This document shows, in pieces, positions 3,001 through 37,800 of a stretch of 64,000 nucleotides of DNA. The notes under the pieces are model-generated. The model was not told the origin of the DNA. It was given only the letters and a program-made list of their open reading frames with translations, and made no database searches. Each line of letters opens with the position of its first letter. The stretch's first letter is position 1. Position numbers and translations under genes: made by a program. Origin of the DNA: Bugula neritina. Taxonomy: Eukaryota; Animalia; Bryozoa. The stretch covers positions 13,878,722 through 13,942,721 of the forward strand of contig OZ037766.1 in assembly GCA_964035545.1 (NCBI GenBank). Direction: 5' to 3'.

Positions 3001-6000
3001 TAGAATTTAAAGCATCATGTAAAAGTAGTAAATTAATTAATAAATCTAAAGATCTAAAGCAGTCGTGGGCGGAAGTGAAAGAAGAAAAAGCGTTAAGACT
3101 CCATGATGAACTAGACTACCAGGAAAAGTAAGATTAATGAGCCAATATATTTATTCCCTCTCTTCCCTTCATTGTTTACAATTTGTGGTAGTTATCATAG
3201 TAATTGTAAAATAATTTTGCCCTCACTGGGAATCGAACCAAGACCTCTGGCTTGCAAGCGAGTGTGCTAACCATTACACCACGGGGACACTGGGTAAACT
3301 CAACGTTACATCCCACCCAGTTCTCTGAACTCCACTGGCCTATTTACTACTCCTTCAGTCTTCAGGCTCTCCTGGCCACTCAGCTTCCTCGCAGTACTAC
3401 TACACTTCACTTAAGGCCGAAATAGCTTGTAAAATAATTTTGCCCTCACTGGGAATCGAACCCGAGACCTCCGGCTTGCAAGCAAGTGTGCTAACCATTA
3501 CACCACGGGGACACTGGGTAAACTCAACACTACAGTAATGAGGCAGTATGAGTTAGTTTTCAACTATTTTAAATGAAATAATTTGAAAAAAATATCTTTG
3601 TTAGTTTGCATATATATGGTTGTTTATACTGTGGTGAAGAAAAACTAGCAGTACAGTGAGGTTAGGGGTATTGTTTTAATTTCTTGCTTATGTTTTCAAG
3701 GAATCGACTCAAAACATGTGAGGACAAGTTTAGTGCAATGAAAACTAGTGAAAATAGTTATCATAGAGCTTTGAAAAACATGAGACTTCAAAGTGAGCAT
3801 ATGAGGAAAGAATCTGAAAAAGAGAAGAACAAGAAGCAAGATCAGTCAAAATATGCCAAATGGTGCGTATAATATTAAAGAGGGACAAAGAAATTCTGTT
3901 TTAAAGATTTGTGCTTTTTGCTATTTCATTAACCAAGTTTGCTTTCTCTTTTTCATCCTTACAAAAAAAAATACTGTTATAGTTTTCAGATTTAGGGTTG
4001 ATGTGTCACCAAGAGAGTCTATTTAACACTAGAGAAACTTCACCAGTTAAGTCGAGTAGATATCGTTATATTTAATGCAAGAATACATAATAAAAATCCA
4101 ATGTACAACAGTAATGATACACACGTCTATTTAGTTTACAGCACTATCCTCAACTGAGCTAGTAGCGCGAAGCGGCTACTATTACTTATAAAACAGCTTA
4201 GCTAATTGGCTAATACATTGTTCCGGGTCAATACGCAACCTTGCGTATTGTGTTGCTGGTAGCTCCACGAGCCACCACACTGCCCCCTCCAGCAGAAAGC
4301 CCACTTTCTGATAAAATAAGATTTACATAAAAAAACGTATACTTCGTTGGGGGATAAGAGAACAGCGTAAAAGTATATAAAAAAAACAACAACTGGTAAA
4401 AAATATACAGGTATATATATCGTGCACTAAGTAATAAGCAAGAGAAGGTCCTATCTACATATAGAGTACGTGCCACCATTACGGTAGGGAATGCCACAGA
4501 GAGGTAGGGGAATGAGTAGTAGGGAGTGGTAGGTAGACTCGAGTTAACTGCGGGCCGCACGCTTCATGCGTTTAATAGACTCCTGTAAGTATTTGAGTTC
4601 ACTGGATGCTGCCTGTACCCGTGGGGCCAGCCTGTACACTTCTTGCTCCAAGTCATGCGCCCTAGCTTCTACCTCGCGTAGGTTACGGGCCCAGGGGGAC
4701 GAGCGAGAGGAAGTTGGCTGCCTGTGTCGTTTCCGCTCTGAGGATGGAAGAGGAGGAGGGAGTGTATACGCATTTGTGTCTACTCTCTGTAGTACGACAC
4801 GAGGAAAGGTATGCGGCATGCGTATAGGACTGTGAGGTGGAGAGTTAGCAGACTGTGTAGGTTTATCTGCGGCTCCAGAGATGATGGGTCGCGGGGAAGG
4901 GAAGCCTTGCTCCAGGCGAGATAGCCGAGCTGAGTCAGTGATGAGTGGTTTGATGGCGTTGAGAAAAGCAGGATAGGATGATTCGTCTACTTCATAGACA
5001 TGCCCTTGATAACACTGCATAGTACGTTGGTGCCGCAACAGGTAATCACGATTGTAGCTATATTCTCCGCAAGGGCAGAAAGTGGTTATGTAGTGTTGCG
5101 GCAAGTGTACTTTTAGTCTGCGGTGGGTCGTGAATCGCTGCTGGCAGAGGTTGCATTCACGATTACCCTCACCTCCTTGATGGGTCCTGATCTCTCTCTC
5201 TGTAGCAGGGGTAATCCAGTTGGAGGTTGCTTCCAACTGGGGTGGCAGTTTCCTGGTGGTAGAAGTTGTTGGGGCCGGCTCTGAGTCCCACGCCATCTCT
5301 AGAGAAGGCATGCCCGGAGAGACGGGCGCGAGTGTGTCTACAAAAGTAGAATTAGTGTTAGATCGCGGTGGATCTTTACAACCTAATTCTAGTGACTGTC
5401 GACCGTTGCTAGTCTGAGAGTCACTGCTTTTGGAATGCACTCGAGGAACTGATGAATCATGTGTGGACTGACCAAGAACAGTGTCTAGCTCCAGGTCTAA
5501 CAGACCATCGGCCATTACAGTGTCTTCATCGTCATTCACATGAAACGTGGTTCCCAGTAATTCTGATTCAATCTGCTGAATTAGTTCAGAATCTACTGGC
5601 ATCGAGCCCGTTTCCATGAATAGGAATACAAGACTTATACTGGCTTACCTGGGAACTCGGTATTAATGTCCATACTCAACGTTCTTGGTAAGGTTGGAGC
5701 TGGTTGTGAGATACGTCTGCCTTTGGCGATGTCAGCATAAGAAAAGGCTGAGCATCGTTTCTGAGGCACGAGGTCGGAACTATTTGCTTTACGCGCATTA
5801 ATTCCTCCCACTATTCCGCCCTCGCAAAAGTTGATATTTGCGTGGGGTTCACAACTCCAACATTTTCCCGTACGGTTTTCCCCTAGACTTTCATATGCGC
5901 CGCTTCTAATGCAGTCACATACGAAGTCTTTCAAATACGGTGGGGGTTTCCTCGTACGCTGTCCCCTCTCTCGGGGGGGTGACACACTTGCCGGTTCGTT

Positions 6001-9000
6001 AGTAGGGGCCTCTAATGGCGTCTCTACTTCACCGTTAGTGGTCACCTCTTCTTGTTCTCCGGATGGAGCCCCTCCCTCCGTGGGGGTTTGCACTTCCGGA
6101 ACCGGCTCGGTTTCTGGAAGTGATGGAATTAGACTTGGCGGTGGCGGACACGCTTCTGTTGACAAAAGCTGCCGCTCCTCTCTCACCAAGTTTTCCTCCC
6201 GCGGTATGACCACTTCGTATTCAGGTCCATGCCGCCGTCGCCCGCGCGTCGTTGTCTGCCTCCTGGGCTCTAACAACGGGGGGGCTTCTCCCACTCCGTC
6301 AGGGCTAGCCCAATACGGTTTCAAGCGAGACTCATTTTGGATAGACACCTGTCCTGAGCGCTCAATCTTGTACGTATGATTGGGCATCGCCTCGACGACC
6401 ACGTAGGGGCCTACGAACTTAGGCTTCAGCTTATCAGCCTGTCCGCGGCGCCTACGGTAATTGACCATCCACACCTTATCTCCTCTTTGATAGAGGGGTG
6501 GTTCATCGGAATCTTCGTGCCGCACCTTCCACTGCTGTTGGCGCAGTATCTCGTGTGCGGCCTTCATCCGTTCCACTAGTTCACTGGCATACTCATGGAC
6601 TGAGTTATCCTGCTCTGGAACGTGATAGGTGAGATGGTCAGGGACACGAGTCTCTCTCCCGAGCATCAAGAGGTTTGGGGTCTCACCAGTACTGGTGTGT
6701 GGGGTGCTACGGTATGCACGCATGACTTGCGGCAACACCGTATCCCATTCCTCTTGACCTCGTCCAAGGAGGAGACTCCGGAGCGCATCACCTAGCATCC
6801 GGTTGTTGCGCTCCACCACCCCGTTACCTTGAGGGTGGTAGGGGGTGGTCCTGCTCTGATTTACTCCCCAGAGGTGGCAAAGGTCGCTCATCAGTTGAGA
6901 CTGGAATTGAGCGCCTTGATCAGAGTGTATCTGTTCGGGAAGGCCAAAATAACAGAATACATGTTGGTCTAGTGCCCTGGCCACTGTTGGGGCTGATGCA
7001 TCTGGGATAGCCAGAGCATCCGCCCACCTAGTAAAGTGGTCGGTTAGTACTAGGATCCAATTATTGCCTCTGGGGGTCAGGGGCATGGGTCCGACCAGGT
7101 CTACAGCGACCACTTGCCAGGGCCTACCAGCATATAGCCTCCGCCGTCCTGCTTCACCAGGGGGGCGGCTATGCTTACTGGCCTGGCAGATCTCACACTG
7201 TTTGACTCTGAGCCGGACGTCACGCTCCATCTGCGGCCAATACCACCGGAGTCGTAATTTGGATATCACTCGCTTGACCCCTGCGTGAGCCTGCTTGTGA
7301 GTATCCCAAATCAACTCACGGCGGATGGCTGTGGGGCAGACTACCCTCTTCCTTTCCGGGTGTCTGCCGCTGGCAGCTAGCGAGATGGTTAGCAACCCAT
7401 CCTGCCCGATCCGCAGCGAGTCCCAACGCTGACAGTATAGCCGGAACTCGGCGCATCCCTGTCGTATGCGTTCCTCGCTGGGTCGTCGCCCTTCCCTTTT
7501 GGCCCGGTAGATGTCTGCCACGACTCCCGGCAGCTCTTCTTGGAGCTTCTTCAGCTCTCGAACATTACCGGCCAGTATAGGGTTGGCGCGGAGGTTTTGT
7601 ACATCCTCCGGGGACTCATCAACTCTTTGCCTGAGTTGACCTTGATCCCAGTCAAATGGTGCTCCGTGATGAGCCAGCGTCTCCAACTCGCATCGTGGGG
7701 GACCTCCATCCCTCCTCTCGATGTTGAGACACTGTTTGCAACCTCCGTCAGGTCGGCGACTCAACCCATCTGCATTGCTGTGTCTCTTGCCCGGTCGGTG
7801 TTCGATCTGGTACGAGAATTCAGCTAGGATTTCGAGCCACCGGGCGACCTGACTGGAGGGCTCTGCTCTCCTGCACAACCAGATCAGCGAGGCATGATCC
7901 GTACGCAGCCGGAACTTCCTGCCATATAGGTATGGTCGGAAGTGCTTCACTGACTTGATTACTGCCAGCAGCTCCTTGCGGGTAGTGCAGTAATTTCGTT
8001 CAGCGGGAGAGAGAGACTTGCTGTAGTAGGCTACTACTACTTCTCGGCCTTCCTGCACTTGCGACAGCACAGCGCCAACATTCTGGTCACTGGCGTCTGT
8101 GTCTAGGATGTACTCCAGAGTGGGGTCTGGGTAGGCCAAGATGGGCGCCGTTAGGAGGCAGCCCTTGAGGCGGTCGAACGCTTCTTGTTCGACTGGAGTC
8201 CACTGCCACGTCACTCCCTTTGCGGTAAGCCGGTTTAACGGCTGGGCTATGCCCGCAAAGTCTGGTATGTATTGCCTGTAATACCCTACCAGCCCCAAGA
8301 AAGCCCGGAGTCCGGTCAAGTCTTGGGGGGTGACCCAGTCTTCTACTGCCCGTACCTTTTCGGGATCCGTTGCCACGCCGTTTCGACCGACAACGTGCCC
8401 CAGGTACTTGACCTCCGGCTGCAACAGAGCGCACTTGGAAGGTTTGAGCTTAAGACCGGCACCTCGGAGTCTCTCGAAAACCTCCTGCAGACGACTGACA
8501 TGTGTCTCGAAGTCTGGAGAGATTACGATGACATCATCGAGGTAGACCAGCAGTGTCTTCCAATGGAGTCCGCTAAGGACTTGTTCCATCAGCCTCTGGA
8601 AGGTGGCTGGGGCGGAGGTTAACCCGAAGGGCAGCACCTTCCACTTCCACAAACCGTCCCGTGTGATAAACGCCGCTTTCTCCTGGGCGTCGGGACTCAG
8701 AGGAACCTGCCAATAGCCGCTTAGCAAGTCTAACGTACTGAAGTACTTGCTGCCGGCTAGGGCGTCCAATGACTCGTCAATACGAGGTAGAGGGTAGGCG
8801 TCCTGTATGGTTACGCTATTGAGTTTGCGGTAGTCCACACAGAACCGCCAACTGCCGTCTTTCTTCCGGACCAGTACGACTGGCGAGCTCCACGCACTAT
8901 GGGCGGGCTCTATCAGTCCCCGGTCCAGAAGATCCCGTACTTGTCGGCTAACCTCCTTCTCTTTCTCCGGCCCCAGCCTGCGCGTGGGCTGCCGGACAGG

Positions 9001-12000
9001 GGCTGTCCCTGCAGTCAGCAGTATTTCGTGTCTGACAATTCCAGTCAGTCCCACGTCATTCTCCCCGCTGCTGAACACATCACCGTAGTCGCGTAGTAAC
9101 TTGGCCATAGCTTGGCGTTCTCTGTTACTCGCGCAGCCGCCACTGGCTGTTTCGTATAACTCCCGGAGATGTGTCGGGACTGCCCCTCGTCCTTGAATAG
9201 GGTGTCGAGGGGGTGCCTCCGTCGCGTCACCCAGCGACGGGCCCACGTCCTCTTCCTGGACGGAATGGAACCGGCCCAGCATTGACCCAGCTGGGAGCTC
9301 AATGGGCTCGGTAAAGGGGTTGACGCACTGCACTAAGACCTCCCCTCGCTCAGTTAGTCGGTTTAAACTACTGGCGAGTTGGATCTTTTCATGCGCGCTT
9401 TCAACGACCCCGAGCCTGGCTATCCGGTTGCTGTTCACTCGGCAGTGGATAGTAGCTCTGGAGCGTCCGGGTACGGTGCAGTTCCGAACTACCTGAACAC
9501 CGCCCACCAGAGGACGCCCAAACTTATCCACACAGACGAGTTCTCGCCCGCCCATCAGCACCACCGACTTACTAAAATCTATTCGGCACTGGTGTTGCTT
9601 CAAGAAGGGCATGCCGAGGATAGCATCTTCCTCCAGTTGACCTATGATAAAGGTCTCCTGTACAGCCTGATCTCGGACACGCCCAGGGAGCTCGATAATA
9701 CCATAAAAGGGGATACATGACCCGTCTGCCAGGGTGCCATGTTCTCCAGTATATGGTCGTACTCTATCCCTGTCCCGGCGGGGCAGTGCCTCAAAGACTC
9801 TACGGCTGAGAAGGTTGGTAGTACAACCGGAGTCGAGCAGGAAAGTGACGGCGTTGCCGGCCACCTTTCCGGGTAGGAAGTAGCTCTCTCCATGTGGTTG
9901 TACTTTCACCCCCCCCCCGCATGTGCTGTCCTGGTTGGACAGGACGGCGGGGGTTCCACCCGTGGTTTACGGGGCTTCCGGCGGCGAGGTTGGTGCCGGC
10001 GGGGTTTGGGCCTCTCCACTGGGCCTTCTGGCTCCATTTCAGTGGCGGGCTCCTCCTCCCGAGGTAACCGGTGAAACCGGTTAGCGAGTGGCAGGGAAAA
10101 GGTACTGGGCCGTTGTGCGGGCCTACTAGTCCTGCGTGGTACCTGCCACTCGGGTAGAATGTTCCGCCGGGTCCGTACGGACAGACGACGGCGTGTTCCA
10201 CCATACTCCTTTAGTTGCGGCCCGCGGGGAGGGAGAGCGTCCGCGGGCCGTGACAGTTTAACACCCCCTGGTATTGGGGTCGTCCTTTCTGTCCCTGGTC
10301 CTGATCAGCGCTACTCCAGCCTTGCCCCACAGGTGTTGGGGGCATCCGCAAGGCCTGACCGGGGCCAGCACCGGCCAGAATGGTCACCAATTGTCCCAGC
10401 ATCTCTACCATACGGTCCACTTCGGCTTCCAGCGGGAGGGCTTCGGAGCTTGTCGTAGCCCGAGCAGCGCTGACTCCAACTACTGGTGGGTTCCGTTGTG
10501 CTCGATGCATTTGGGTAGCCAACAGGTAAGCTTCTCCAGCCTCCAGGGCATCCTCTATTCTGGTTATCCCTTTAGCTCGTAGGTGATGGTCTAGGCCCAG
10601 GTCGTTTAGGGACTGGACAAAGGCGTCATAGGTGTAACGCTCTTGGTGTTGTGCTGGCAGATCGCTATATGCAATCTGCGCCAGCTTCTTCACCGTCGCG
10701 GCATGTTCTTGTAGCGAGGTCCCCGGGGTGCGGCACAATCTCTCCAGCTTGGTCCTGGCGTCTATGACGGAGGTGCCAAAACGGGCCCGCAGCGCAGCCA
10801 GTATGCCGTCTACGTCCGTTCCCACTCCGTACGGCTTGGCTTGCTCCGTCACCGCCCTCCGCAATTTGATAAGGGCCACTCTATGCGGCCATTGAGCAAC
10901 TTCCATTACCTCTCTAAATTCTTGTATAAATTGTTCGACATCTTCCGACCCAGTAAAGGTGGGAGCTTTCAAGCAATGTCTATAAGCTTCTTCTCCTTCA
11001 CGATTCACAGGATTAACAGCATTTCTACGCTCACCTTCTACTGGGGGTGGTTGCATTCTAGCATGTTCGGTCTCCATCTTTGATATACACTATCCCACCG
11101 CTGCCACCACTGTTATAGTTTTCAGATTTAGGGTTGATGTGTCACCAAGAGAGTCTATTTAACACTAGAGAAACTTCACCAGTTAAGTCGAGTAGATATC
11201 GTTATATTTAATGCAAGAATACATAATAAAAATCCAATGTACAACAGTAATGATACACACGTCTATTTAGTTTACAGCACTATCCTCAACTGAGCTAGTA
11301 GCGCGAAGCGGCTACTATTACTTATAAAACAGCTTAGCTAATTGGCTAATACATTGTTCCGGGTCAATACGCAACCTTGCGTATTGTGTTGCTGGTAGCT
11401 CCACGAGCCACCACAATACACTACAGGATGACTAACTTTACATTTAAGCCTTTTGTCGTTTGCTGCCCTTCTACTTAGACTCTAGAGTTTTGGGCTCAGT
11501 TGTGTTCATGTTGTTTGCATTTTGTGCATATTCAATGTGCTATGCTACACTTTACTTTTTCAAAACAAGCTAAATAGAGTTCATCATAGTATTCCAGATA
11601 TTGACACTTTACACAAATATTCTGCATTTCTACGCATTGAATGACAAATTTTGGAAACATGTTTTCTACATGAGTGTGCATTCTTCAAAGAAGAATAATA
11701 TTTGCAGGTTTGATGATTTAGTGAATATGGTGCCTAAAGAATGCTCTTCTCAATGGTACTTCAAGGTTATACTAGACAAGCTAAGGTTGTTTGGGATTGT
11801 AAGTATCATTTAATGAGACGTTATGATAATATACTTTTAACTGCACTGGACACAGTCACTGGGTTGTTTTACTTTAAATAGTAGGGCTCTGCTGAACATT
11901 AGCAATAATGTTTAGTTAATTAAATTGAATGTTTGAACTCGTAAAGGGTGATTGACTTTTAGTGACTAGGGAGTTGAAAGTTGTTCAATATTCAAGTTAT

Positions 12001-22900: not shown

Positions 22901-25900
22901 AATCGGTTGAAATTGTTGATCGCTTACTGATGATGTTTCCAGTGGGCTCTGAAGTCCCATTATATTATAAAACTAACAGTGATTATTGCCGACTTTCATT
23001 GAATGCTTTCATAATGCTGCAATACACAGCTTAATCACTGAGCTGACTTAAAGGTTCAAAGTTCATGATTAAACTTCTCACAATGTTTTCATTAAAAGTC
23101 AAATACTTAGAATGTAAGTGAAAGCTTACCTTTATAGCTGTAGCACTACCGGTTACTACTTTCTTTGTGCCGAAAAAGTCTGCAGAATTAGTATTCTTTA
23201 CAGGTTTTTCTAATTTGCTCTTGGTTGCTGTACTGCTTTTGAGAGAAGACTTTACATCTATATAAAAGATTAAAATGTTTGTGTATTAATTTTAAGACTC
23301 CTAATATGATTATTATTATTATATTATCTAAGATGAGTGCTTATTGTATTTCAACAGGTTGTCACCAACTTTATGGACTACACAAACTAAGACCGTAGAT
23401 TATGGTGCAATTTAATTGAGATACGAGTATTATGTGAGTAGGAAAAGCTGAAACAAGAGACTATACATTATAATAAATCATATTACAATATCTATAATAC
23501 TGGAATATGAATAATAACCAACAAATGCAAGACTTTTCTTGCAGCCTTGAATAACAGAAAAAAAACTGAGCGAAACATTTTAAATTTTATGATACTAAAG
23601 TACCTTAATATTTAAATAATCCTAAATATGTGCAAAGACTGATTAATTTATATTTCCTATAGTTGATGCTATATAATATTATTCTTCTAAAAAATAAATC
23701 CATCACATTATTACCTTTTGTAGGGCATACATTTTACATGCAAATACTAAGAAAACACATGCAATACTTTCATATCAAAAATTGTACTTGTATGCATGTA
23801 CCTTATAGAGCCACAAAGCATAATATTTGGGTATTCCATCAGATTTAAAGTACAAAAAGTTTAGAATATAGCAACTATGTGTAACTCAGATTGCAACACA
23901 AAAATTTAGAAATTATTTGTTATTAAAAACACAGCCGTTTTGCATAAATTTGAAGCTTGAATTTTAATCATGAGCTTGCATAATTTTATACAAGTTATAA
24001 TTGTGAAATATTGGAGTTACTATACATCTCCAATTAGCTGAATTTTAGATGACCTATTGCCTATTATTTCAATTAATAATCTTATGAGAATATCAAAGAG
24101 AACTTCACCTTTTGCAGATTGAGAGCTCTTTTTGGGAGTTGGAGATTTGTCTTGACATTTGATTTTTTTAGCAGGAGAAGTTTTGGGTGGGTGGTCCTGA
24201 TCTTCACTATCTGAAGACTGACAGAAAACAACTGACATCAGAAAAATACGGAGTTTAATGTTTGTTGCATTTGCTACTCATAATATATTAAACACACAGC
24301 TTCGTCTATCCTGTTGACACATTGTTCTCAATGACATTTGACTTTAGACCATTAACAATACATGGTAAACTGCATAGTTGATTTAGTAAGAAAATTAACT
24401 GGAGAAAATTAGGACATCATACCAGTAATTACAATTTTTCAAAATCACAGCTATGACTGGTATATAAACAGTTACCAAAATCAAAATGTAGCTATAGCAA
24501 TTCTTACCTCAGATATTTGCAAAACCCTTTTTCGTTTTTTATCTTTATTTCCATGATCATTGTTTTGATTTGTGACGGAACCCGATTTTGACGATTTCTT
24601 TTTCTGGCTTTTGGAATCTTCTATGGAATTTACTACTTGTTTACGAGTGTTATAGTTGCTCGATACATTGGGTCCTTTCCCAAAATAACGACGAATATCC
24701 TAAATAAAAAGACACGGTGTTGATAAAACAATGAAATTAAATAAAACACAAGCCGGTTAATGATGTTATATTGTTAACCCTCAATATAGACCCTTCAAGA
24801 GTAGTTATAAATATAACGTTTGACAAAGTGAAAATGAAAATCAAATAATACTTTATATTCATAGCAGCAATTAATATAAGGATAAGAACTATATATGCAT
24901 ATTAATATTTACATAATTTATTTTGATACTTGTAAAAGTATTCACTGGCAGTTACTATCACTATGGCAATCACGATGGCCAATTCACTTTGAATAGTTAT
25001 ATAAATAGCTTTGCTTTCACGCTTAGTTTTACTCTTATTAAAATTTACTTAAAGTGATCATCACACTAGACCCTCTAGAGGTAATATGCTTGAGCAGTCA
25101 TTGGATGATAGTAATGCAGCTAGTACTAGTTGGAAAGTCTTAACTGAAGAAGAGCTTTAATCCTGTTCATGTGAAGGCTGCAGTCCTGGACCACCTTAAA
25201 CTGCTGCCTTGGTTGTGTCGAATTTTCAGGTCTCCGATAGCCTTTCGGAGAGAGTTGTTCAGATACTTGGTACCATTAGTCTCCCTGACCAGGGCTGTTT
25301 TCTTACCTGAAAGCGATTCTGTACAATGCTCGCAGTTGACTTGTTCAGCAGACCATCATAAGCAGAGCTAAGAGCAAAATGTTGTTTCCCTTTGCCAAAA
25401 TCTTACAAAAAAGACTAATGCTTCTCTTTTTTCTTCTCAGCATAAAAGGTTGCAGACAGAGATTTTTCATGGCACTACCAACATCTTCACGGCCTTTAAC
25501 ATTGGTTATGAATCGTACAGCATCTACTTGTATCTCTAAGTTAGACATCTTCTTAAAGAAATAGTTGAGTCCCGAGCTGCACTAGCATGTATGCCTAAAG
25601 TGTGGTAGACACAATGCCTTGTATGAACTCAACCGCGCTAGTGCAAGAGTCCAGCAGAGAGCTCTCTTAACCATACCCAATTGTCTTCTAGCATCTAGTC
25701 CTTTTCGATATATGCCCATTGAACCCACAATCTGACTGCAGTGTGATGCCCAGGTATTTTGCATATTCCGCATGATCTAAAACTGATCCATTTAACATGT
25801 ACTTAGGAGCATCGCCCACAAAGTTAAAGCTGACGATTTTGCTCTTAGATATGCTGGGTGATATACCCCACTTGCTTGATCAAGCATTAAGGGAACCTAA

Positions 25901-26824
25901 GTTTTGTTGGAATCTTCTGCAGTCACTCAATGAGGCTATCGCCTGGTAGACAAGAGTCAGGGTGTCTTCAGCAAACAAACACATGAGCAGCCAAAACCTC
26001 CCATAAATCATTTAATTTTAGCCTTAGACTCTTTTCCATGTTATTATTGAAAGACATGAATGATTATTATTAAGATAGATTGTCATTTATAATAATATAA
26101 ATATAATATAAATATTATAAAAATAATTAACAAATTATGTTAGCAATAAATTTAATCACTTCGACCTGGTCTTCAAGTTTATGACTACTATGATTATAAC
26201 CTTACACTTAGTTATAACTTACATATAATCTTAAAATTAAAATTAAATTTAATATAAATATTCGCATGAAATAATAAAAATTAAAATGAGCCTAAATATC
26301 ATTATCAATATCAAATAATCAATATGAATATGAAATAATTATGAATATTACTTAAACTTGATTGTCAACATCATTCAATATATATTAATTATTAAATATC
26401 ACTTGATTATAAAATTAAATAGTAAAAGTAAAACTAAAATTAAATATTAAATTTAATATAAATAAATTCATACGTACATTTAAATTCATAATGATCATTT
26501 ATTAATTGTCATTGAGCATGTCTAACTCTATAACTTATAGCTATACTTATAGTTATAACTTATAAGTATAATCATATTCATTGCCATTGTGATTGTGTCA
26601 GTGTGAGTCACTAGAAGAGCCAGAGCGGGAGCCTATAGGCTATAACTATAGTATAAGTATAACGATAAACTATAAAGGTAAACTATAGTTAATAGACCTA
26701 GCATAAAACTTTAGCTGTAACTTAAACTAACAGTAACATAATCATAATGATAAAATAAAACTGTAAGTGTAAAACTAAAGTATAAACTGAAACTGTAAAG
26801 TCAAAGTGTAAAGAATTTTACCAT
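13969..26824 (-). CDS. RFC1: Replication factor C subunit 1 (large subunit), multi-exon
   Basis: ATG-only first coding exon (26824-26822) spliced to DIRRYFG (24699-24508). BRCT GKTFVVTG..GGRVVSAISGKVNYLVTG (~20750-20574); VDKYRP (~19177); Walker A GPPGIGKTT (~18550); Walker B IMDEVDGMSGNEDRGG (~18070); DLFFYDYS..LFIQENY; FPKWLGK; MEEYDLLKDDYDNILEL; TKAAMTRSYNK; Lys-rich last exon 14067-13969. Confidence 0.96.
14921..15068. mobile_element. Small MITE with 18-bp TIRs and TA flanks (Tc1/mariner-type), in an RFC1 intron
   Basis: TA|GGAGCAGTAGTGGAGAAA ... TTTCTCCATTACTGCGCC|TA; 16/18 complementary. Confidence 0.55.
25150..26010 (-). pseudogene. Decayed 5'-truncated non-LTR retrotransposon (CR1/L2-like LINE) RT fragment in RFC1 intron 1
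   Basis: Minus-strand remnants LFAEDT (FADD-like), KYLGITLQSD, ARRQLGMVKRAL, SYKALCLPH, AVRFIT and RRK..ISLFCKIL, interrupted by stops and frameshifts. Confidence 0.8.
26040..26820. repeat. AT-rich low-complexity tract with 3/6-bp periodicity at the 5' end of RFC1 intron 1
   Basis: For example aactaa cagtaa cataat cataat gataaa ataaaa ctgtaa gtgtaa aactaa. Confidence 0.7.
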
Positions 26825-27019
26825 TTATTCTTATTATTATGATGGTTATGATTAGATCCTGGTTGTGATACACTGGTTCTAAACGATTGAAATGTATTCT
26901 CGGTTTCGATAAGTCTTCAATAAACTTTAAATATTTCGAAGAAAACTCTCACATGCTCATTTACGTTATAAAATGTATTACACTTATAGCAGCTCTGCGT
27001 ACTTTCACTTTGGGAAATT

Positions 27020-27085
27020 AAAAACCGCGATTGGATAGGATTTGGATTGGATTGGTAGCTCGCATTTATATCGATACCGCGAGTG
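27020..27085 (-). promoter_or_regulatory. Putative RFC1 promoter: three CCAAT boxes, a DRE palindrome and CGCG-containing E2F-like sites
   Basis: ATTGG at 27030, 27046 and 27051; TATCGATA at 27069-27076; ACCGCGA at ~27024 and ~27076; locally CpG-rich; about 200-250 bp upstream of the ATG. Confidence 0.6.
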
Positions 27086-28905
27086 AATGTAACGTGGATT
27101 GCAAACCGCTGTGGTGACAGGAGTTATCTTCTTTCATGCTAAACGTATCCGCTTTTATTCAATTCATCCGTAAAAGAAGTGCCTCTACTGCTTTTAGCAT
27201 AAAATATGATATTACAATTTATACATCAATAATAGACACTTGATATAATGAGGCAACAGCTACTATTTACCAAATACATTTTACTGTTGTGGTCAGCTCA
27301 TTTATCAGGTCTTGTTATATAACTATTTGCAAGTGCTTAAATTATGTAAATGTTTATAATAACTATCATCCTGCATGTAACGGTATGTTTACTATACTGC
27401 TGCCATTGTCCTATATAGTAACTATTTTCTAGCACATACAGACTACAGTATTTGAGTATTTCTTTACAGTAGTCCCCTTTCACCACGTGGTCCTGTGCGG
27501 TGATGGGAGTATACTTGTCTACAGAATTTTCCTATAAATAGTGGCTTACTGGTCTCACCTGCTCCTCTTGCAGACAAAGAGTCTCACCTTATAATAACTA
27601 TAGGGCTGTAGCCTGTAAGTTCTGTATTGTTGCTAAACTTCACTGTAATTTTATGTTGCAAACATACTATATACATAATATCTGGATTGTATGCTACAAC
27701 CTATACAAATCGGCAGACCTGTGTTCCTAGCTAGTGGGTTAAGGTATCTACAGCAAGGAGAAGCTGAAAACCTTATAATTACCAATACAATAGATGAAAT
27801 TTTCGAAATTTTCTTTCGCACAGTTCTACTTTAGACTGAGAAAAAAATATTATTATTCATATATTATGCAGAGGGGTGTAAAACATAATTTTTTAATCAT
27901 GCAGCTAAATTTAGGTTAAAATATAGTAATACTCCAGTTTGAATTTTCAAAATTTTACTGCAGCATACTTGGGTTTTCATTTTAAATCATAATTACTTGT
28001 TTGGTTTATAGATAACTTTATGTTAATAAAATTGAGACCAGAAATGTATTATGGGCCACAGATGTGTTCAGTAGAGCCAGAGTGTTTACTTACACTCTAT
28101 AGTAATATTATGAATGGTACAAAGTCTTTTTAGTTTCATAGATAATTTTGAATCCAACTGTTGGTTTTGCAATCAGAACTTTAATGGGGACATCAGAGAA
28201 TACTAAATTTTACACTAACACATAGACTATAAAACACAAACTAGATGTCAAAAACGTGCAATTAAAATTAGCCCTGTTATTGAGCAACTTATTTTTAAAA
28301 TCAATTTATTTTGCAAAAAAAACAAGTGTGGTAATTTGCTCAAAAAGCATATTTTAGCAAAAGCAAAACAATGCCAAGTTCCGAGTCAAAAGATTTGTCT
28401 AACTTTGCACATTGCTCACTTTTGTAGAAGTACACATTATAGGGCACTTCACAACAACCTACAGGAAAAAACAGCTATAAGCATTCATGAAAGCAGTAAG
28501 TTTTTAATCTCATGTTCATAAAAATTGGCTAGGGTAAAGAATTGAAACTACAGTTAATAAGGTATGTACAAGAAGGGAAATATGGACATAAAAATTTCTC
28601 ATTTTGCACCAAATTAAACAACGTCATTTATAACTAAGTTTACACATTTCATAAGTAGATATGTAAAGAAGTTACAATAAAATAATAAATTATGAGTGCA
28701 TATAAAAAGTACAAGCAATAAGTAGTAATAATAGGCTGATCATAAACTGCTAAGCAGTGATGTACTAGTTGTTGAAAATACTAAGCAAAAGTACTTCTAA
28801 AATATATAAAACTAAAAGCAGGGTATAAATTTTTTGTCAAGTATCAAAATATATATAATTTTTCTTCGCAAACCAAGACCCAATCATGGTGCAGACAATC
28901 AGAAA

Positions 28906-31900
28906 TTAGATTACAGAAGGCTGCACGCTAATAAAGGCCTCTTTATTAGTTTTGGCATCATCAGTGATATTTGCAAGTTGATATTGCGTTTGAGTGGTAG
29001 AACCTGGTGGAGGTCGATGTATTGGCCGCCTGCGGGAAGAAGGCGCAGAACTCTTAGATGAGTAAAGCCCTCCATAACTGCTCGTAACTTCAGTCAGTGC
29101 ATTGTTCAAAGAATAAGCAGCTTGACGTGCATTTGGTGCAGCAGTTGAAGAAGAATTTTGTTGTGGTATATATGTCCTAGATGGAATATTACTATTATTA
29201 GATGGAATATTACTATTATTAGATGTGTATGAAGCTGGTGAAGCACCACCATTCATATGTGGTACACTAGAAGTATGAGATGGATTGGAGACGGCAGATT
29301 GATTAGATCTACTACCAATATTATTAGCAGTGTACGAAGAGGGAGGCTTTGATTGGTGTAATACTGGAGGACGGTCATTTTGGTGAAAAGGACGCGGGTT
29401 TTGTTGCTGCGAGTGGATATGCATTTTGTGTGTAGAGTCACTTCTATCTGGAGAAGGTGGGTAAAATTTCTTTTCTTGAAAGTGAGGAGTTGAGTTTGAA
29501 GACGACTCTTGATGCAGAGCTGTGGCCGGAGAAGAACGCTGAGAGGACAGAGCTGCTGAGTCTGATGGTGGTGACAGGTGGGCAGGCGAATCATGGTAGT
29601 TTCTACTGCGATTTGGCTGAGGCATCAAATTTCCAGATACAAGTCTCTTGAAAGTATTTTCTTTTGGGTGAGCGTCACCACCTCTTATGTGGCGTAACTC
29701 AGATGTTGGAAGGATAGGAATATCTTGGGAACTAGCACCTTTATTATTACTCTGCTGTGCATTTGTATGAGGCATTTGGTTCTGTGGTGCATTCAAATGG
29801 TGCGGTTGGTTCGCTTTAGCTGAAGGTAAATTCGAGTTTGGCATCTGAGATCCAGGACGAGCATATTTATGATTGGCATACAAAGGGTTAGAAGTGGCGA
29901 TGTCACCAGAGTCAGCTCTGTCCACCAATTTATTTGAGTCATTTCTCTGTGTTCTTAAATTCTCCGAAAATTGATTGCCACCAGAGACTCTCGAATCTGG
30001 TTGGGTGCTACTAGGTTGATGATACTTATCATATTTACTAGACCACATTGAGCCTTGGTCTAAATTGTGTTCTAAAGTTCTGCTAGAATTAAAAGGAGGG
30101 ATATCACCATTTTTCTCTGTACTGCTTATTGATGAACCAGGACTAGATTCACCTGAGGAGGATAATGGTTCTTTGGTTGGAGTGGATATATGCAAGGATA
30201 AATTATGAGAGCGCTGCGGAACTTGTGAATGATGTGGTGCATTACGCGAAACAGCAGATCTGTAAGGTTCAGGACCATCTGATAAAGGTGGAGGGGGCGG
30301 CAGATATGCAAGACTATCTCTAGAATATGCTTCTGGACCTTCATCTAATGGCGGTGGAAGATCAGCCACTGTATTAAATGACTGAGAAGGAATACTACTA
30401 GAATGTCTAGAGCTGCCGGGTAGAAATGGACCAGGCGGCTGGCCGGGAAATCTCTGTGGGTACTCATTATATGGACTGTTGGAGGAACTTCCATACCCAT
30501 AGCTCTCATTAACATGGCCTATAGGAGGTTGCAGACCATGGGGTGACTGTGGCATGTCACTATCCACTCCTGAAGATGCGGTCACCGTAGGAACCCATGG
30601 TAGAGAACCAGGTCGCTTTCTAGTTGACCCGTTATTTTGACTACTACGTTTAGATCTTTGACTCGCACGATTACTACGCTTACTTTGTCTAGTACTGTTT
30701 GGTGTTTGAGACGTGTTGCTTTCTATGAATCTTTCACTTCTGTTGGACCTCAGACTAGCTCGCCCCGACATCGCCAATGGATCTACTCGAGTTAAAGTAT
30801 TTTCTCGATCTACTCTTGATGATATGCTTGATCTTCGTGAAGTTGGCACTTTATAAACTTGAAATATTGGGCCTGCAACATAAACAAAATAATATTAACT
30901 GCACAGAAAGACACCAAAGGCTGCTTGTAGCACACAAAATAAAAACTAAAATCATGAGATAAAGGCACCTGTTCTGTGATTTTTACCTTACGGCATACTA
31001 CATAGACATAAATATACATGTTGTATAGCAAAAATGAAAAAAAAGAGCCCTCTTACAGAAAATTTTTTTTACTAGACTAAAACAGTAAACCTAGACTCCT
31101 TAAACTCAAAACCTATCAAACACTCAAGAACCAAATAAGTTTTTTAGAACTGAAGAACCACCCATTAATTAATTGTGTATGTGAAAACTTGAGTAACTTA
31201 TTAAAGTAGGAAAATTTAGGTTCAAAACAGCAGGTAGCAACTTGTTCTTTATTCTAGGCAGCCTTCACACAAACTGTCCAACTTATCTAGCTGTATACAA
31301 ACAACATTGACAGGGTACTAATGTAGATGCACTGCTTCAAGGCAGTGATAACTAGACAATTTAATTTCAATCATGGCTAAGATATGCCATGACATACAAA
31401 TCAAGATGCATATCATAGCAAAAAACATAAGAAAATAACAAAATAATAGTTAGATAACCTCATGACACTGTAGTATATACTAGAGTCAGCAATAGAGACA
31501 GGTGATAGCAGGTATGATACTCATAGGTATACTTACTAGGGTCAACCTTTGCCTTTAGCACATGTATTACATATGATGATAATACACATCCAACAACCTA
31601 GAAACAAAGATTGGAGCACCACGTTCACAAGATGAATCAGTTTCATGAATGTTATTGATAATGTAGACAAAATGCTGAAAACTACACAACCAACTCATTT
31701 CTAGTTACTTTTAGTTACCACAAGTTGCAAGAGAGTTATCATCTCTTTTTGTGAACTTGACTTAGCAAAGTTTTCCACAAACTTGTAAGAAAAGTGCATA
31801 TAACTTTCAAATGTAAACAGTACCTTTATTCTCAGTACATCCAAGATAACTTACACATAACAGTACTTGTAGAGATGCGTGTATAACTTCTACTAGATTC

Positions 31901-34699
31901 CCGTTTAAAGCACAAGTATTAGTAGCTGCACATTCCCGAGTACGTTTCACCCACCACGAGATATTGGATCCAAAGCTAAGTATGGAGTACGAGTTCTAAA
32001 AGAATATTATACGCTTAGCTTAGCAGCAACATTAACTGGTATGATTGTAGCCACAAGGAAACTAACATTTTAGGAGGGGCCGAGAGGCTATGAATAAGTC
32101 TTTAGCCCGCTTTAACAAAAACCCTTTCTACCAGGGGTTGCTCACAGGGAGTCTTGTGAGAGGCTATGAATTAAAGCGATCAAAGATCTGTGACTTGTAG
32201 AGTTTAAGCCAGGCCACCTGGGTGTGGAAACAGAGAGATTACTGTAGTAGAGCATTTTTTTAGTTATACACCTGGCCACAACAGCAGCTTGCTAGTTTCT
32301 GTTATGTCAAGAAAGTGGCCAGAACATACAGTCTACACAAGTTAGGTGTTTGAGAAGTGATGTAATATTGCTCTACATACAAAATCAGCTTCTTTAACAG
32401 CTATGGTTGCAGATTGCTAGAAGTTTAATAATAGCACCCCTGGGCTAAAGTTGCTGTTTAGCATATAGTCCTTAGGTAATCTTAAGGCCAGAGTCAAGTC
32501 GGTAGTCAGTCATAAATCAAGGGGAATCACAAGGTCTAGGTTTAAAATAGTAATAGTTGTAACACTGCATGTTCTAGAGGCTAGTAGGTGTATTATGACT
32601 AGCTCTGCGTACATCTTCTCAAAAACACAATTAGATGAAAATAATGGTCTGATCAATGATTGTAAAAATATAGTATTGAGTTGCAGCAGTTAAACAAGTA
32701 CCAAATAGTGTAGATGCTTAAGTCAAGGTCAAGGAAAGGTCAGCTTCATAACTTGCGTCTAATCCACTGCCTACTACCTAACACAATTAACAAATGCCAA
32801 GTATTTTGTACAGCTGCTTAATAACGTTTCTAGTGGGTGTATATCTCTTATATACTATTATGCATAATGATTCACCAGCTTTCCCTACCAGATGTTCACA
32901 TAGCATGGCATATGTTCACATGCTACACACTCCTACATAACTTCATATCAACATGAAATATGAGGTACTCCCACTTTGCCTACAGCTACAAGAGTTGTGT
33001 GTAGGGATGGTAGTCCAGGTAGAATATACATTGAATGACCCAAAGCAGTTTTCAGAGGTCCATAAAGTCAAGTTATAACAAGTTTTTAATGGCAGCAACC
33101 CTTGGAAAATGTTGCTGTTGCCTCAACAACTTGGCCAGTAGAAGTTTATGAGATCAAAAGTATAACCTTAATCCTATTTCTGCATCTTGACTATAAATTA
33201 TAACTTAGACATACAAGTTCTACATAAAGAGCAATAAATGAGAATCGATAAAGCTACATGGTATACATTAATTTTAAGGCTAATAATGAAATCAAATAAA
33301 TTATTAACACAGCTTTTAAGATGTGTGAACCATATAAATTATTACTGATTTGATTCTTTGAGTCAAACATGTTGTAACCATGGTAACTATTGTACCAACT
33401 CACCTCATCAAAGTTTCCTACTGGAAGATAAAGGCAAATGACAAAAATATTCCAGCCAGTGTAGAGAAGGGTCCACACCAGGTACTGCAACATTGTATAA
33501 AACTAGTCAATATGATGCACACAGGAGCTGAATATGTCATCTGATAAGTGTTTACACCACAGACATATTTAGTGAACACCCCAGACAAGAGCACAGAAAC
33601 AGATATTATATCAAATTACAAAGATTACAATGGATGACTTGTAAAGAACATAGTGACTGCATGTTGCACTACAAATCACAAGTACTTAAAACAGATATAT
33701 CTTAGCTGTAAAAACATCAAGTGGTTTAATAGAGTTGAGAGTTTTATTGTGACACGAGCCATGAGAGGCGACATAAGATACTGACAACTGTTTAAAACTT
33801 TATGCAGCATATTGGTGTATTGCCTACTGGATATGTTATAAAAGGGAAATGCTGCTACCAGATGAATGATATATTGATTCAGCCGACACAAAAGAGTTGT
33901 GAAGAATATCAAATACTGAAAAATAAAGTAACTCACAATGAGAGAATAGTGAATAAGGCTCAGAATACTAAGTTGTTAACTAAAATGCACCAACACAGAG
34001 CCAGTGGAGAAACACACATTCCAATTAACTAATATTTTTGCTATAGAATAAATTACCATGACTAACTTCACCATTATTGAGCATTAAACTTTGGCAACAA
34101 GAAATTGGCCAAGAGTACTATTATATGCATACTAGTTTATACCTACGATATATTGCGCCACAGAATGCTTTCAATAACCAATGGTGTGCAAATTTACAGT
34201 ATTCAAAAATTAATCATCAAACTTTTTAAAAAAGTAAAGCAACAGAGAACATAGAACACTGGGTATAACCAATTATTAAAAATATAGTTTACTCACGGCA
34301 ATAATTAGGGTGTGTTTGTACAGGCATAATCCAAATATTGCTATGATAATAAAAATGACTTGAATAAAGCAGGGGATAAAGGCCAAGTAGAGGTATCCAA
34401 GAAAGTTGAAGACTAGCCATTCCACCACTGTAATCTGAAGGTAAAGCAAGTTAGACATCTAATTTTAAGCTAAACTGAATCTGTTCTATGCACAATTTAA
34501 CATAATCAACCTTATACACAATTTATTATGCCTAGCAACAAAAATATTGGTATTTTATATAAAATAGTATACATGACAAAGCAACTTCGGAGACTAATTT
34601 GGCAATGGAATTGAAATTTTAATTGGCACTTGAGAACTTTCTTACCAGCTGTAAAGTACAGACAACCAGAAATAACACAGAGGCATTGCAGCAACCCAT
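28906..34699 (-). CDS. NKAIN: Na+/K+-ATPase beta-subunit interacting protein (NKAIN) with a long disordered C-terminal tail, about 813 aa
   Basis: Exons 34699-34646 (MGCCNASVLFLVVCTLQL), 34434-34297 (VEWLVFNFLGY), 33484-33404 (YLVWTLLYTGWNIFVICLYL), 31995-31855 (SWW..C..C..EVIHASLQVLL), 31597-31537 and 30872-28906; phases consistent. Probable non-coding first exon ending at ~36332. Confidence 0.88.
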
Positions 34700-35189
34700 T
34701 TTTCAGTAACAACACCTCCAAAATACCAGCGCCAACTTAATCATTTGCTCTGTATTCTGCTCTGTACCTTACAATGGCACATTCTGAAAACAAAAAAGCA
34801 TGTCAATTTGAACAAAAAGAAACTCATATATAAAAATATAAGTGTTGTGGATAGAAGTGCCTATTTTTGAACCAACTACAGTAAATGGTTCAGCCAACAT
34901 TCTGTGAGTCAATGATAAATCACACACTATATAATAAAATGTAATATAACTAGTGAAAAAAATAATGTTTCTATTGCAAAGCTAATTTAACAGGTGTGTG
35001 AATTCAAGCTAGACAACTCAAGTAGCTCTTTAAAAGATATTATTTTAGAGTTGAACACAATATAAGCATAATTTAGTTTCAGTCAGGATTATACCATCAA
35101 GTAAAATGACTTGATATTAACCAAGGTATGTCAAACAACATTCACATTGACAAAAAGCTACTAAGAGACTTTTCAGATTCAGTTTTCTA

Positions 35190-36245: not shown

Positions 36246-37800
36246 CAAATAGATCACGACATAAACAGTTATAATTCAGTTAATTCTCGTCTAAATTTTT
36301 GTGAAATAGAAAATCAAACAGAAATTCTCACCAATGAATCATGGTGAATGAATCAGATTATGAAGTACATATTTTAATCATACTGATACTCATTGTGGTA
36401 GTAATTATTGTTCTTACTTACTATTCAGCTTTGCTCAGCGGTAGGCTTCCGTAGTAAGTGCTACACGTCGATTATTGTGTCGTAATGGCCTCGTATTTAG
36501 GCCGAACGCAATTTTATTATTGAGGAGACAATAGCTAAATGATTCAATAACCTGTTGGACCATTGAGCTAGCTAGCTATATGCATTTAAAATATTATATT
36601 GATTTGAATGGCATCTCTGTACCTGGGCACGTGGGCTGAACAATTTTTATGATGCACTATAAACAATGGCTAATTTGTCTTTATTGTATATTTTATCTTA
36701 TAATTTTGTGTTATATCTCTAATACCATGTGTAGGTGTTGTTCTACTTCTTGTTTTAAATTTGCATATATCTGTCTGAGATTATTTGTGCATTATATTGG
36801 CAGTTTTAATGCCTAAAGGTAGCTGCATTTTTATTCAATAATCACTGAAATATGATGGCTATACAAAAACAGCATCTTACATTTGTTTTCGCACAGTGCA
36901 TACCATGTAGAGATACAAGCAATTTTTCTAATTGCACTAGTTCTAGCAAGTATGTGTAGAAGTTGTCCACCTATGACAAAGTAATGTGTTCCAAACCAAA
37001 ATACAAAGTCAAAAGCTATAAATACAAGATTGGCAAAGATATGCATCTCTGTATCTAACAGAAATATATGGCAATCTTCAGGCTAGTAATTTACTTGATT
37101 ATATAACTTATATAAATATCAGGTTTGTAGAATGTTTGCACATATAAAAGGTTTTACAAACAAAGCTATAATTATATTTTTATGCAGCTTTAACATTTTA
37201 AACAAGTCAAGTTTCTTTTTTAAGACCAGGAAAATAGTTTTTGAAATATAAAAATTAGCAATTGAATCAACAATCCATAAAAAGTATTATTTTTATAGTC
37301 AAGACTCAAGACTAGTTCATGTAACTCAACGAATTGCCAAGTTATACTAGTTGCATTGTTAGTACTTTGGTTATTATTGCTTAAACTAGTAAGGTAAATG
37401 AGAAATATGAAAGTAGGTTCAATAAGCTAAACCTATAAGTGTATATATAACACACAATAATAATATAAAGAAATAAGAAAAAAGCAGATACAAATACAAT
37501 ACAAAAAATATACATTGCACTTACATTTATTTTAACTACATTTGGTTAGGACTAAAATTTAACAGCATGTGACAATAGGTGTAGACTAGCTACTGAAACA
37601 TAACAAAAAACTCACGTTTGTTTTTGAAGTCTTCATCCTAATACTGATAACAAAACGTAAAAGTATAAGCCTATTAATTGAAAGGTATAAGATATAGCAT
37701 AAGTTATATTAATATAAATTACAAGTAAACTAATTCTACCTCACAGGCAGGATTTGAATGAGATTTGATAAAATTGGTGACAACAAAGTCAATCGTTGAA

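What the first reader, a model, noticed from the sequence alone, without database searches (positions are those of the whole stretch)
4544..5617. Gypsy retrotransposon carries a transcription-factor-like third ORF (acidic domain, zinc fingers, coiled coil) in place of env
Seen: an intact 357-aa sense ORF between pol and the PPT. It has an acidic/hydrophobic N-terminus (DSELIQQIESELL..DDEDTVMADGLLDLELDTVL), a canonical C2H2 finger followed by a CxC-x12-H-x5-C finger, a basic NLS-like ERKRHR and a C-terminal coiled coil, with no signal peptide or TM. Established: the third ORF of Metaviridae is classically env, and self-encoded transactivators are typical of complex retroviruses (Tat, Tax, Tas). 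Inference: this lineage encodes its own dimeric DNA-binding regulator, acting as a transactivator, anti-silencing factor or integration tether. I cannot tell whether it has already been described.
Basis: partly seen in the sequence, partly recalled or inferred. Interest (0 to 1): 0.88.

Follow-up and report, generated by a model that had tools for sequence, protein, structure and literature searches.

The report
Gypsy retrotransposon's zinc-finger regulator gene
A recently inserted jumping gene in an animal genome carries, where retroviruses keep their envelope gene, a conserved gene for a two-zinc-finger protein of an unnamed family that likely works in the nucleus to switch on the element's own expression.

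Summary
A 7,441-bp Ty3/Gypsy element with identical LTRs carries a 357-codon sense ORF between pol and the polypurine tract. It is not env: no hydrophobic segment. It is under purifying selection among sister copies (24 synonymous to 8 non-synonymous differences; 18:1 from residue 122 on). It belongs to a large family with no Pfam match: 261 clusters at 50% identity, with seven zinc ligands kept in 96-100% of 73 remote domains. Six relatives are tied to retrotransposon parts by their own sequence; three annotated bryozoan genes have unknown context. New here: a candidate splice acceptor inside the ORF, covered by a conserved RNA hairpin with a compensatory base pair, and two in-frame donors. 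Together they predict a shorter form without the 'acidic domain'. Function is untested. A DNA-level activator is my best reading (0.45); a Rev-like RNA exporter like CERV of C. elegans Cer1 is the main rival (0.28). Regulatory non-env ORF3s have precedent; I found this domain family in none of ten literature searches.

The parts
11111..11415 (-). 5' LTR, 305 bp, TG...CA
   Evidence: identical to 3975-4279 over 305 bp
11092..11109 (-). primer-binding site, 18 nt starting TGG; tRNA-Leu-like (tRNA identity recalled, not tested)
   Evidence: sequence
10211..11077 (-). gag-position ORF, 288 aa; no Pfam or PDB match, no CCHC knuckle in any frame
11029..11037 (-). candidate splice donor in gag codon 15 (intron would start at 11034), phase 1, in frame with the acceptor at 5338; predicted only
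   Evidence: tied top of 423 GT sites by my ad hoc score; such scores are not rare in shuffles
9906..10304 (-). arginine/proline-rich open frame between gag and pol, in a third frame
5635..9966 (-). pol: protease, RT, RNase H, integrase, about 90-residue tail after the usual integrase end motif (motif recalled)
   Evidence: Pfam; Ty3 best PDB hit
5643..5673 (-). in-frame ATG in the pol tail (5673) and candidate splice donor (intron would start at 5648), phase 1; predicted only
4544..5617 (-). ORF3, 357 aa
5338..5617 (-). ORF3 codons 1-93: acidic, predicted disordered, weakly constrained; also the 3' part of a predicted intron
5348..5390 (-). RNA hairpin covering the predicted branch point and pyrimidine tract; compensatory pair 5383/5355
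5330..5365 (-). candidate splice acceptor (intron would end at 5338, codon 93/94); predicted only
   Evidence: top of 265 YAG sites by my score; homologue columns 93/94 compatible
4883..5242 (-). folded double-zinc-finger domain, residues 126-245 (C2H2 finger 5155-5093, C2HC finger 5077-5012)
   Evidence: AlphaFold2 pLDDT 91.7, pTM 0.83; ligand conservation
4721..4738 (-). basic NLS-like cluster ERKRHR (294-299)
   Evidence: sequence; RKRR-type cluster in close homologues
4550..4696 (-). C-terminal heptad helix 308-356, leucine-zipper-like; not a bZIP basic region
   Evidence: heptads in 27 of 38 remote homologues versus 3.0 expected
4280..4290 (-). polypurine tract
3975..4279 (-). 3' LTR
3971..3974 (.). 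4-bp target-site duplication (second copy 11416-11419)

Best explanation
ORF3 is a conserved accessory gene of this Gypsy lineage whose double-zinc-finger, coiled-coil product likely enters the nucleus, likely oligomerises and most likely binds the element's own DNA to raise its transcription or hold off silencing. Shown: the gene, its place, purifying selection, the conserved ligand set and family breadth. Predicted: the fold, and expression from sub-genomic RNA in two forms, a long one from the ATG at 5617 with the acidic N-terminus and a short one spliced to the acceptor at 5338 without it, the choice being damped by a hairpin over the branch point. Inferred only: nuclear import, self-association, DNA as the ligand, activation as the outcome.
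For: Selection: 24 synonymous to 8 non-synonymous among 32 differences in sister copies (pN/pS 0.11-0.15), 18:1 for residues 122-357, no indel or stop at 8% share or more. Family: 57 close homologues, 261 clusters at E<=0.001; in 73 remote domains (median 31% identity) seven ligands are 96-100% kept, the eighth 76%. Fold: tandem beta-beta-alpha fingers; the nearest structures in three searches are DNA-bound tandem C2H2 fingers (ZBTB7A, Kaiso, SALL4, ZBTB20; rmsd 2.4-4.0 over 50-57 residues; SALL4 also tops the sequence search). Helix positions that contact DNA in classical fingers (numbering recalled) carry K/R (83%) and R (62%) in finger 1 and D/E (81%) in finger 2, while positions -1 and +3 of finger 2 vary between remote families, as family-specific recognition would need. 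Basic cluster in 27 of 38 and heptad tail in 27 of 38 remote proteins. The long frame looks translated: 23 of 57 close homologues start at the same Met and an R-V-P-Y-K motif recurs in the distant P0083.
Against: All structural matches are weak: Foldseek E 0.16 or worse, VIA Z at most 3.5, and the top VIA row is an unrelated RNA-processing protein. Two fingers with a short linker inside a larger domain can equally bind RNA or protein. The acidic region is weakly constrained (6:7; 4:5 for codons 1-93, or 4:6 with the difference at 5355 seen only) and its conservation is partly explained by RNA pairing, so it is poor evidence of an activation domain. Several helix residues stay constant across families whose LTRs should differ, which fits a shared ligand as well as a family-specific one. 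The only tested precedent in this slot, CERV, works on RNA export (PMC10309623). No splice junction or expression level was observed.
Confidence: 0.45

Rival explanations
1. ORF3 is a Rev/CERV-like RNA regulator: made from spliced RNA, it binds the element's unspliced genomic RNA and gets it exported or protects it from splicing.
For: CERV sits in a Gypsy element, comes from spliced mRNA, shares N-terminal peptides with Gag and has a leucine zipper, KRKK NLS and Cys finger. Here a donor in gag codon 15 would join in frame to ORF3 residue 94. The acceptor is covered by a hairpin with a compensatory pair (chance 0.008-0.03). An NES-like pattern at 35-44 is kept in 23 of 33 homologues with that motif.
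Against: No likeness to CERV's described domains (C4 loop, G-protein-like domain). The NES pattern occurs in 26% of shuffles and would be absent from the spliced form. The predicted intron folds well (z -3.4), but 21 of 183 windows of the element reach z<=-3, so no RRE-like element stands out; Rfam found nothing. Nearest folds are DNA-bound fingers.
Confidence: 0.28
2. ORF3 is an adaptor at another step: it tethers the integration complex to chromatin, or supplies nucleic-acid chaperone fingers that this Gag lacks.
For: No CCHC knuckle in any frame of the gag region. In five relatives the domain or its tail is in one frame with pol parts (protease in P0202, P0210, P0219; integrase end in P0115, P0137). 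The donor at 5648 would join the pol tail in frame to the finger domain.
Against: The fused relatives lack RT and may be deleted copies. The fingers are classical C2H2 type, not retroviral knuckles. An arginine-rich frame after gag could serve as nucleocapsid. No target-site data.
Confidence: 0.12
3. ORF3 is a captured host zinc-finger gene carried along without use to the element.
For: Annotated bryozoan genes hold the domain (XP_067940963.1 with two copies, XP_067944745.1, KAF6040922.1); their context is unknown and one could be a host source. Some copies are decayed (39 of 49 close homologues keep all eight ligands; one contig skips 188 nt).
Against: Strong purifying selection within the multi-copy family and retention across families down to about 30% identity. 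A host origin long ago is not excluded, uselessness is.
Confidence: 0.03

Closest known systems
CERV of Cer1, Ty3/Gypsy element of C. elegans (PMC10309623; abstract, passages, sections 6 and 15 read)
   Same: Non-env nuclear-type protein of an animal Gypsy element; zipper, basic NLS, Cys/His finger; spliced mRNA sharing Gag N-terminal peptides (shown there, predicted here)
   Different: CERV has a C4-type loop and a G-protein-like domain and multimerises in predicted rings; ORF3 has tandem C2H2 + C2HC fingers. No homology test was possible (CERV sequence not held). CERV's function is RNA export; ORF3's is untested.
Additional pol-3'LTR ORFs of plant Retand/Grande elements, TRP28 (PMC11963269 passages; PMC7264820 part 1 of 3)
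   Same: Family-wide extra ORF after pol, proposed DNA-binding regulator; Grande's product is nuclear
   Different: Antisense, plant-specific, TRP28 domain, no C2H2 fingers; ORF3 here is sense and had no TRP28 match in Pfam
Non-env ORF3s of bdelloid Juno/Vesta elements (PMC5408684; abstract, Results 3.1-3.4, Discussion read)
   Same: Sense ORF3 in the env slot that is not env
   Different: DEDDy exonuclease or GDSL esterase; the paper reports no clear departure from neutrality within genomes, whereas this ORF3 is strongly selected
Classical tandem C2H2 fingers (Zif268, ZBTB, SALL4)
   Same: Finger 1 spacing and beta-beta-alpha fold; weak nearest structures
   Different: Below Pfam cut-off; CxC second finger; 5-residue linker; wrapped in extra helices and a strand (about 120-residue domain with conserved W134, T139, V210, D211)
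Complex-retrovirus regulators Tas, Tat, Tax, Rev (recalled)
   Same: Self-encoded regulator 3' of pol, likely from spliced RNA
   Different: No sequence or structural match found; analogy of role only

Membership tests
Ty3/Gypsy LTR retrotransposon (Metaviridae) | LTRs TG...CA, TSD, PBS, PPT | tested here: met
Ty3/Gypsy LTR retrotransposon (Metaviridae) | pol order PR-RT-RH-IN with Ty3-like RT | tested here: met
Ty3/Gypsy LTR retrotransposon (Metaviridae) | placement in a named clade by RT tree | not tested
   no reference RT set was held; pol scans found no loci
env / env-like ORF3 | signal peptide or transmembrane segment | tested here: not met
   max 19-residue hydropathy 0.58; at most 1.18 in 57 close homologues; 1 of 38 remote proteins above 1.6
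env / env-like ORF3 | homology to a viral fusion protein | tested here: inconclusive
   no match at E<=0.001 in BFVD or PDB
classical C2H2 zinc-finger protein | C-x2-C-x12-H-x3-H with beta-beta-alpha fold | tested here: met
   finger 1; but 15.6 bits versus Pfam cut-off 25.2
classical C2H2 zinc-finger protein | TGEKP-type linker between fingers | tested here: not met
   linker is Y-I-T-T-F, 5 residues
classical C2H2 zinc-finger protein | sequence-specific DNA binding | not testable with these tools
   needs EMSA, SELEX or ChIP
bZIP factor | basic region directly in register before the zipper | tested here: not met
   basic cluster lies about 10-15 residues upstream, separated by Pro/Ser-rich residues; no bZIP Pfam match
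CERV / Rev-like exporter | made from spliced mRNA | tested here: inconclusive
   sites predicted; no junction among the joints shown
CERV / Rev-like exporter | C4 loop and G-protein-like domain of CERV | tested here: inconclusive
   model shows neither, and no G-protein rows; direct comparison with CERV not possible
CERV / Rev-like exporter | required for export of genomic RNA | not testable with these tools
   needs experiment
retroviral transactivator (Tas/Tat/Tax type) | raises LTR-driven transcription | not testable with these tools
   needs reporter assay

The most novel reading that the evidence does not exclude
An env-less Gypsy lineage runs a complex-retrovirus-style feedback circuit with its own, so far unnamed, double-zinc-finger family: one gene gives a long form with an acidic activation region and a short spliced form without it, an RNA hairpin over the branch point sets the ratio, and the two forms switch the element on and off. 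Host genes with the domain would be domesticated copies.
Probability: 0.2. Interest if true: 0.85.

Novelty: new variant of a known kind. Interest (0 to 1): 0.63.

Why it matters
LTR retrotransposons are usually treated as gag-pol replicons that depend on host transcription factors. Only a few self-encoded regulators are described, and CERV is the only functionally tested one I found. A strongly selected, widespread, unnamed zinc-finger domain in the env slot gives a concrete protein, a short LTR and a predicted splice switch to test whether retrotransposons evolved Tas/Tat- or Rev-like control on their own. It also defines a new protein domain family, with possible host-domesticated members in bryozoans.

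Tried and rejected
Genomic context of homologues could not be fetched: no own genome; ORF3 scans of metagenome and viral contigs confirmed no locus; pol scans likewise; plasmids no match (not an informative collection). A search for proteins of 672-2000 aa found none among 7980 candidates, although the later profile search did find 833- and 1145-aa fusions, so one search was a false negative. The ESM Atlas gave no answer. The two-copy complex prediction of residues 300-357 returned no verdict (score 0.08, mark 0.32). Fold searches gave no significant match for the whole protein or the core; the coiled-coil rows are generic. RRE-like uniqueness of the 5338-5648 fold rejected. NES pattern rejected as evidence. 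Splice-site scores alone are not significant: 22% of shuffles have two such donors, 24% one such acceptor, and the antisense strand has one of each; my score was written after I had seen the candidates. One RNA run holds a contig at 4617-4892 (depth 2.55) and has no cover in bin 5408-5708, but many other bins are also empty, so neither shows expression or splicing. Most other predicted stems in codons 22-58 and 97-102 are often broken in homologues (92 of 1066 and 59 of 215 cells). Host exons tested had no Pfam match. Env, FAST-like membrane protein and bZIP readings rejected on sequence.

Full report
1. Observation. It sits in a 7,441-bp element: LTRs 3975-4279 and 11111-11415 are identical over 305 bp, flanked by a 4-bp target duplication, with an 18-nt primer-binding site and a polypurine tract. 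pol (9966-5635) has protease, RT, RNase H and integrase in Gypsy order, and its best solved relative is Ty3 Gag-Pol. None of 2000 shuffles of the pol-to-LTR interval gave an open run of 357 codons. No hydrophobic segment exists. The flanks are AT-rich animal-type DNA (35% GC); no genome is held.

2. It is a selected part of a multi-copy family. In run X1, summed contig depth over ORF3 (23,000-35,000) is of the same order as over gag (37,000-39,000) and far above the flanks (about 88). The tool warns that this is no copy number, so I read it only as 'many copies carry ORF3'. All 32 differences listed at 8% share or more were classified: 24 synonymous, 8 non-synonymous, pN/pS 0.11-0.15, p about 1e-7; residues 122-357 give 18:1, residues 1-121 give 6:7; no indel or stop was listed. 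One further non-synonymous difference (5355) appears but not; it makes 24:9. Decayed copies exist too (one contig skips 188 nt; two of eight listed pieces have gaps). A contig of run X3 bridges the pol/ORF3 junction at 87% identity (5541-5779).

3. Family. The word-indexed search gave 57 unnamed homologues at 35-73% identity among 2113 candidates and 64 among 7995 with a profile. The full profile search gave 261 clusters at E<=0.001, 116 at 1e-10; the best 150 were listed, 140 of them new. Of these 140, 83 hold a domain covering both fingers (85 domains); 73 domains are remote (under 45% identity, median 31%). In them C155, C158, H171, H175, C181, C183 and H196 are 96-100% kept, C202 76% of 59, along with W134, T139, I143, V210 and D211. 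Of 38 remote proteins with 70 or more residues after the domain, 27 have a heptad tail (3.0 expected by shuffling), 27 a basic cluster (no control) and 1 a hydrophobic stretch. No member of alignment A1 (58 scanned) had a Pfam match to a relevant family better than weak zf-C2H2; of 26 longer remote proteins only three had any match.

4. Do homologues lie in elements? Context could not be fetched, so only read-through proteins speak. Of 218 homologue or cluster-member proteins held, 5 contain pol pieces in the same frame (protease in P0202, P0210, P0219; integrase end in P0115, P0137), and P0064 runs on through the 3' UTR into a PPT/LTR-like stretch (tblastn E 5e-4). The only named members among 27 look-ups are uncharacterised proteins of the bryozoans Watersipora subatra and Bugula neritina; one has two domains. 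Whether they are host genes or annotated element ORFs is open.

5. Structure. AlphaFold2 gives a confident core (residues 122-240; pLDDT 91.7, pTM 0.83 when folded alone) and a long C-terminal helix; the rest is disordered. No search found a significant match; the nearest rows are DNA-bound tandem C2H2 fingers at Z about 3 or E 0.16-1. The helix has a clean 3-4 repeat with Leu at d positions and a conserved Pro at 332.

6. By a simple consensus score of my own, written after I had seen the candidates, the two best of 423 donor sites (11034 in gag codon 15; 5648 in the pol tail) and the best of 265 acceptor sites (5338, ORF3 codon 93/94) are all phase 1. Either join is in frame and would give 278 or 272 residues without residues 1-93. 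The scores alone are not rare (22% and 24% of 300 shuffles; the antisense strand has one of each). Support comes from homologues. Column 93 is L, S, V or I in 44 of 44 rows, all codable as N-pyrimidine-A, and column 94 starts with G in 43 of 44. A hairpin (5390-5371 with 5364-5348) covers the predicted branch point and pyrimidine tract. Its pair 5383/5355 is G-C in the window's sub-lineage and U-A in most copies; both window letters have the same depth, 2328.4, and U-A is forced by the amino acids in 43 of 43 homologues. Both changes are non-synonymous, so pairing was kept at the cost of two residues; chance is 0.008-0.03. A second pair changes on both sides in two near-identical homologues, and the loop codon 84 is the most variable column (0.37). 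In this stem 7 of 688 cells cannot pair, against 131-292 for slid partners; that control leans my way because the structure came from the window. These counts reflect one or two events in related sequences. Codons 1-93 are less constrained than 94-357 (4:5 versus 20:3, Fisher p 0.023). Yet the long frame seems used as well: 23 of 57 homologues start at the same Met and an R-V-P-Y-K motif of this region recurs in the distant P0083. No junction read was seen; contigs could not show one reliably.

7. Mechanism. Shown: gene, position, selection, family. Predicted: fold, splice sites, hairpin. Inferred: nuclear import through the basic cluster, self-association through the helix, nucleic-acid binding through the fingers. 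I put DNA-level activation or anti-silencing first (0.45) because the nearest folds are DNA-bound fingers, finger 2 varies at positions that read bases in classical fingers (numbering recalled), and an acidic region is present in the long form. A Rev/CERV-like role is close behind (0.28) because of the splice architecture and the one tested precedent. An adaptor role (0.12) and an idle passenger (0.03) follow.

8. Known or new. Other non-env ORF3s: bdelloid rotifers (PMC5408684), plant Retand and Grande (PMC11963269 passages; PMC7264820 part 1 of 3). Passages of two annelid surveys, a metazoan env survey and a review held no description of a zinc-finger ORF3 (PMC8556966, PMC8220671, PMC13524379, PMC5962544). 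Ten searches (listings only for papers not named above) found no description of this family. Repbase Reports, subscription journals and supplements were not seen and may mention it. So: a new variant of a known kind (regulatory accessory ORF of a Gypsy element), built on a domain family that appears unnamed.

9. Verdict. Observation confirmed; interpretation partly supported; interest 0.63.

Noticed in passing
window 9906-11077, minus strand: The gag ORF (stop at 10211), an Arg/Pro-rich frame (10304-9906) and pol (from 9966) lie in three different frames, with a G run near 9907-9915. Two frame changes separate the gag start from pol; whether programmed, a lesion of this copy or an assembly error was not determined. 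No CCHC knuckle.
   Followed up: partly
window 3536-3951 and 11450-11997: One 2485-nt contig of run X3 covers both flanks in one piece, i.e. an empty insertion site in a related genome.
   Followed up: no
window 3213-3340 and 3428-3534: Two copies of a tRNA-derived SINE-like repeat; ARAGORN calls a tRNA-like sequence at 3217-3289; very high summed contig depth in runs X1 and X3.
   Followed up: partly
window 5635-5900, minus strand: pol runs about 90 residues past the usual integrase end motif; the tail holds a GC box, a weaker acceptor-like site at 5761 and several upstream ATGs, and may be the leader of ORF3.
   Followed up: partly
proteins P0202, P0210, P0219: Single ORFs joining a Gypsy protease to the zinc-finger domain with no RT between: possible non-autonomous elements that keep only protease and ORF3.
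   Followed up: no
proteins P0214/P0075 (XP_067940963.1, XP_067940964.1) and P0102: Proteins with two tandem copies of the domain; the Watersipora one is annotated as a gene with isoforms and may be domesticated.
   Followed up: partly
window 57655-62142: Mucin-like Ser/Thr/Pro-rich ORF with a 21-bp tandem repeat (about 104 registers).
   Followed up: no
window 28906-30894 and 37801-38988, minus strand: Long host exons, low-complexity and coiled-coil; no Pfam match. The element itself appears to sit in an intron of a plus-strand host gene (read by eye).
   Followed up: partly
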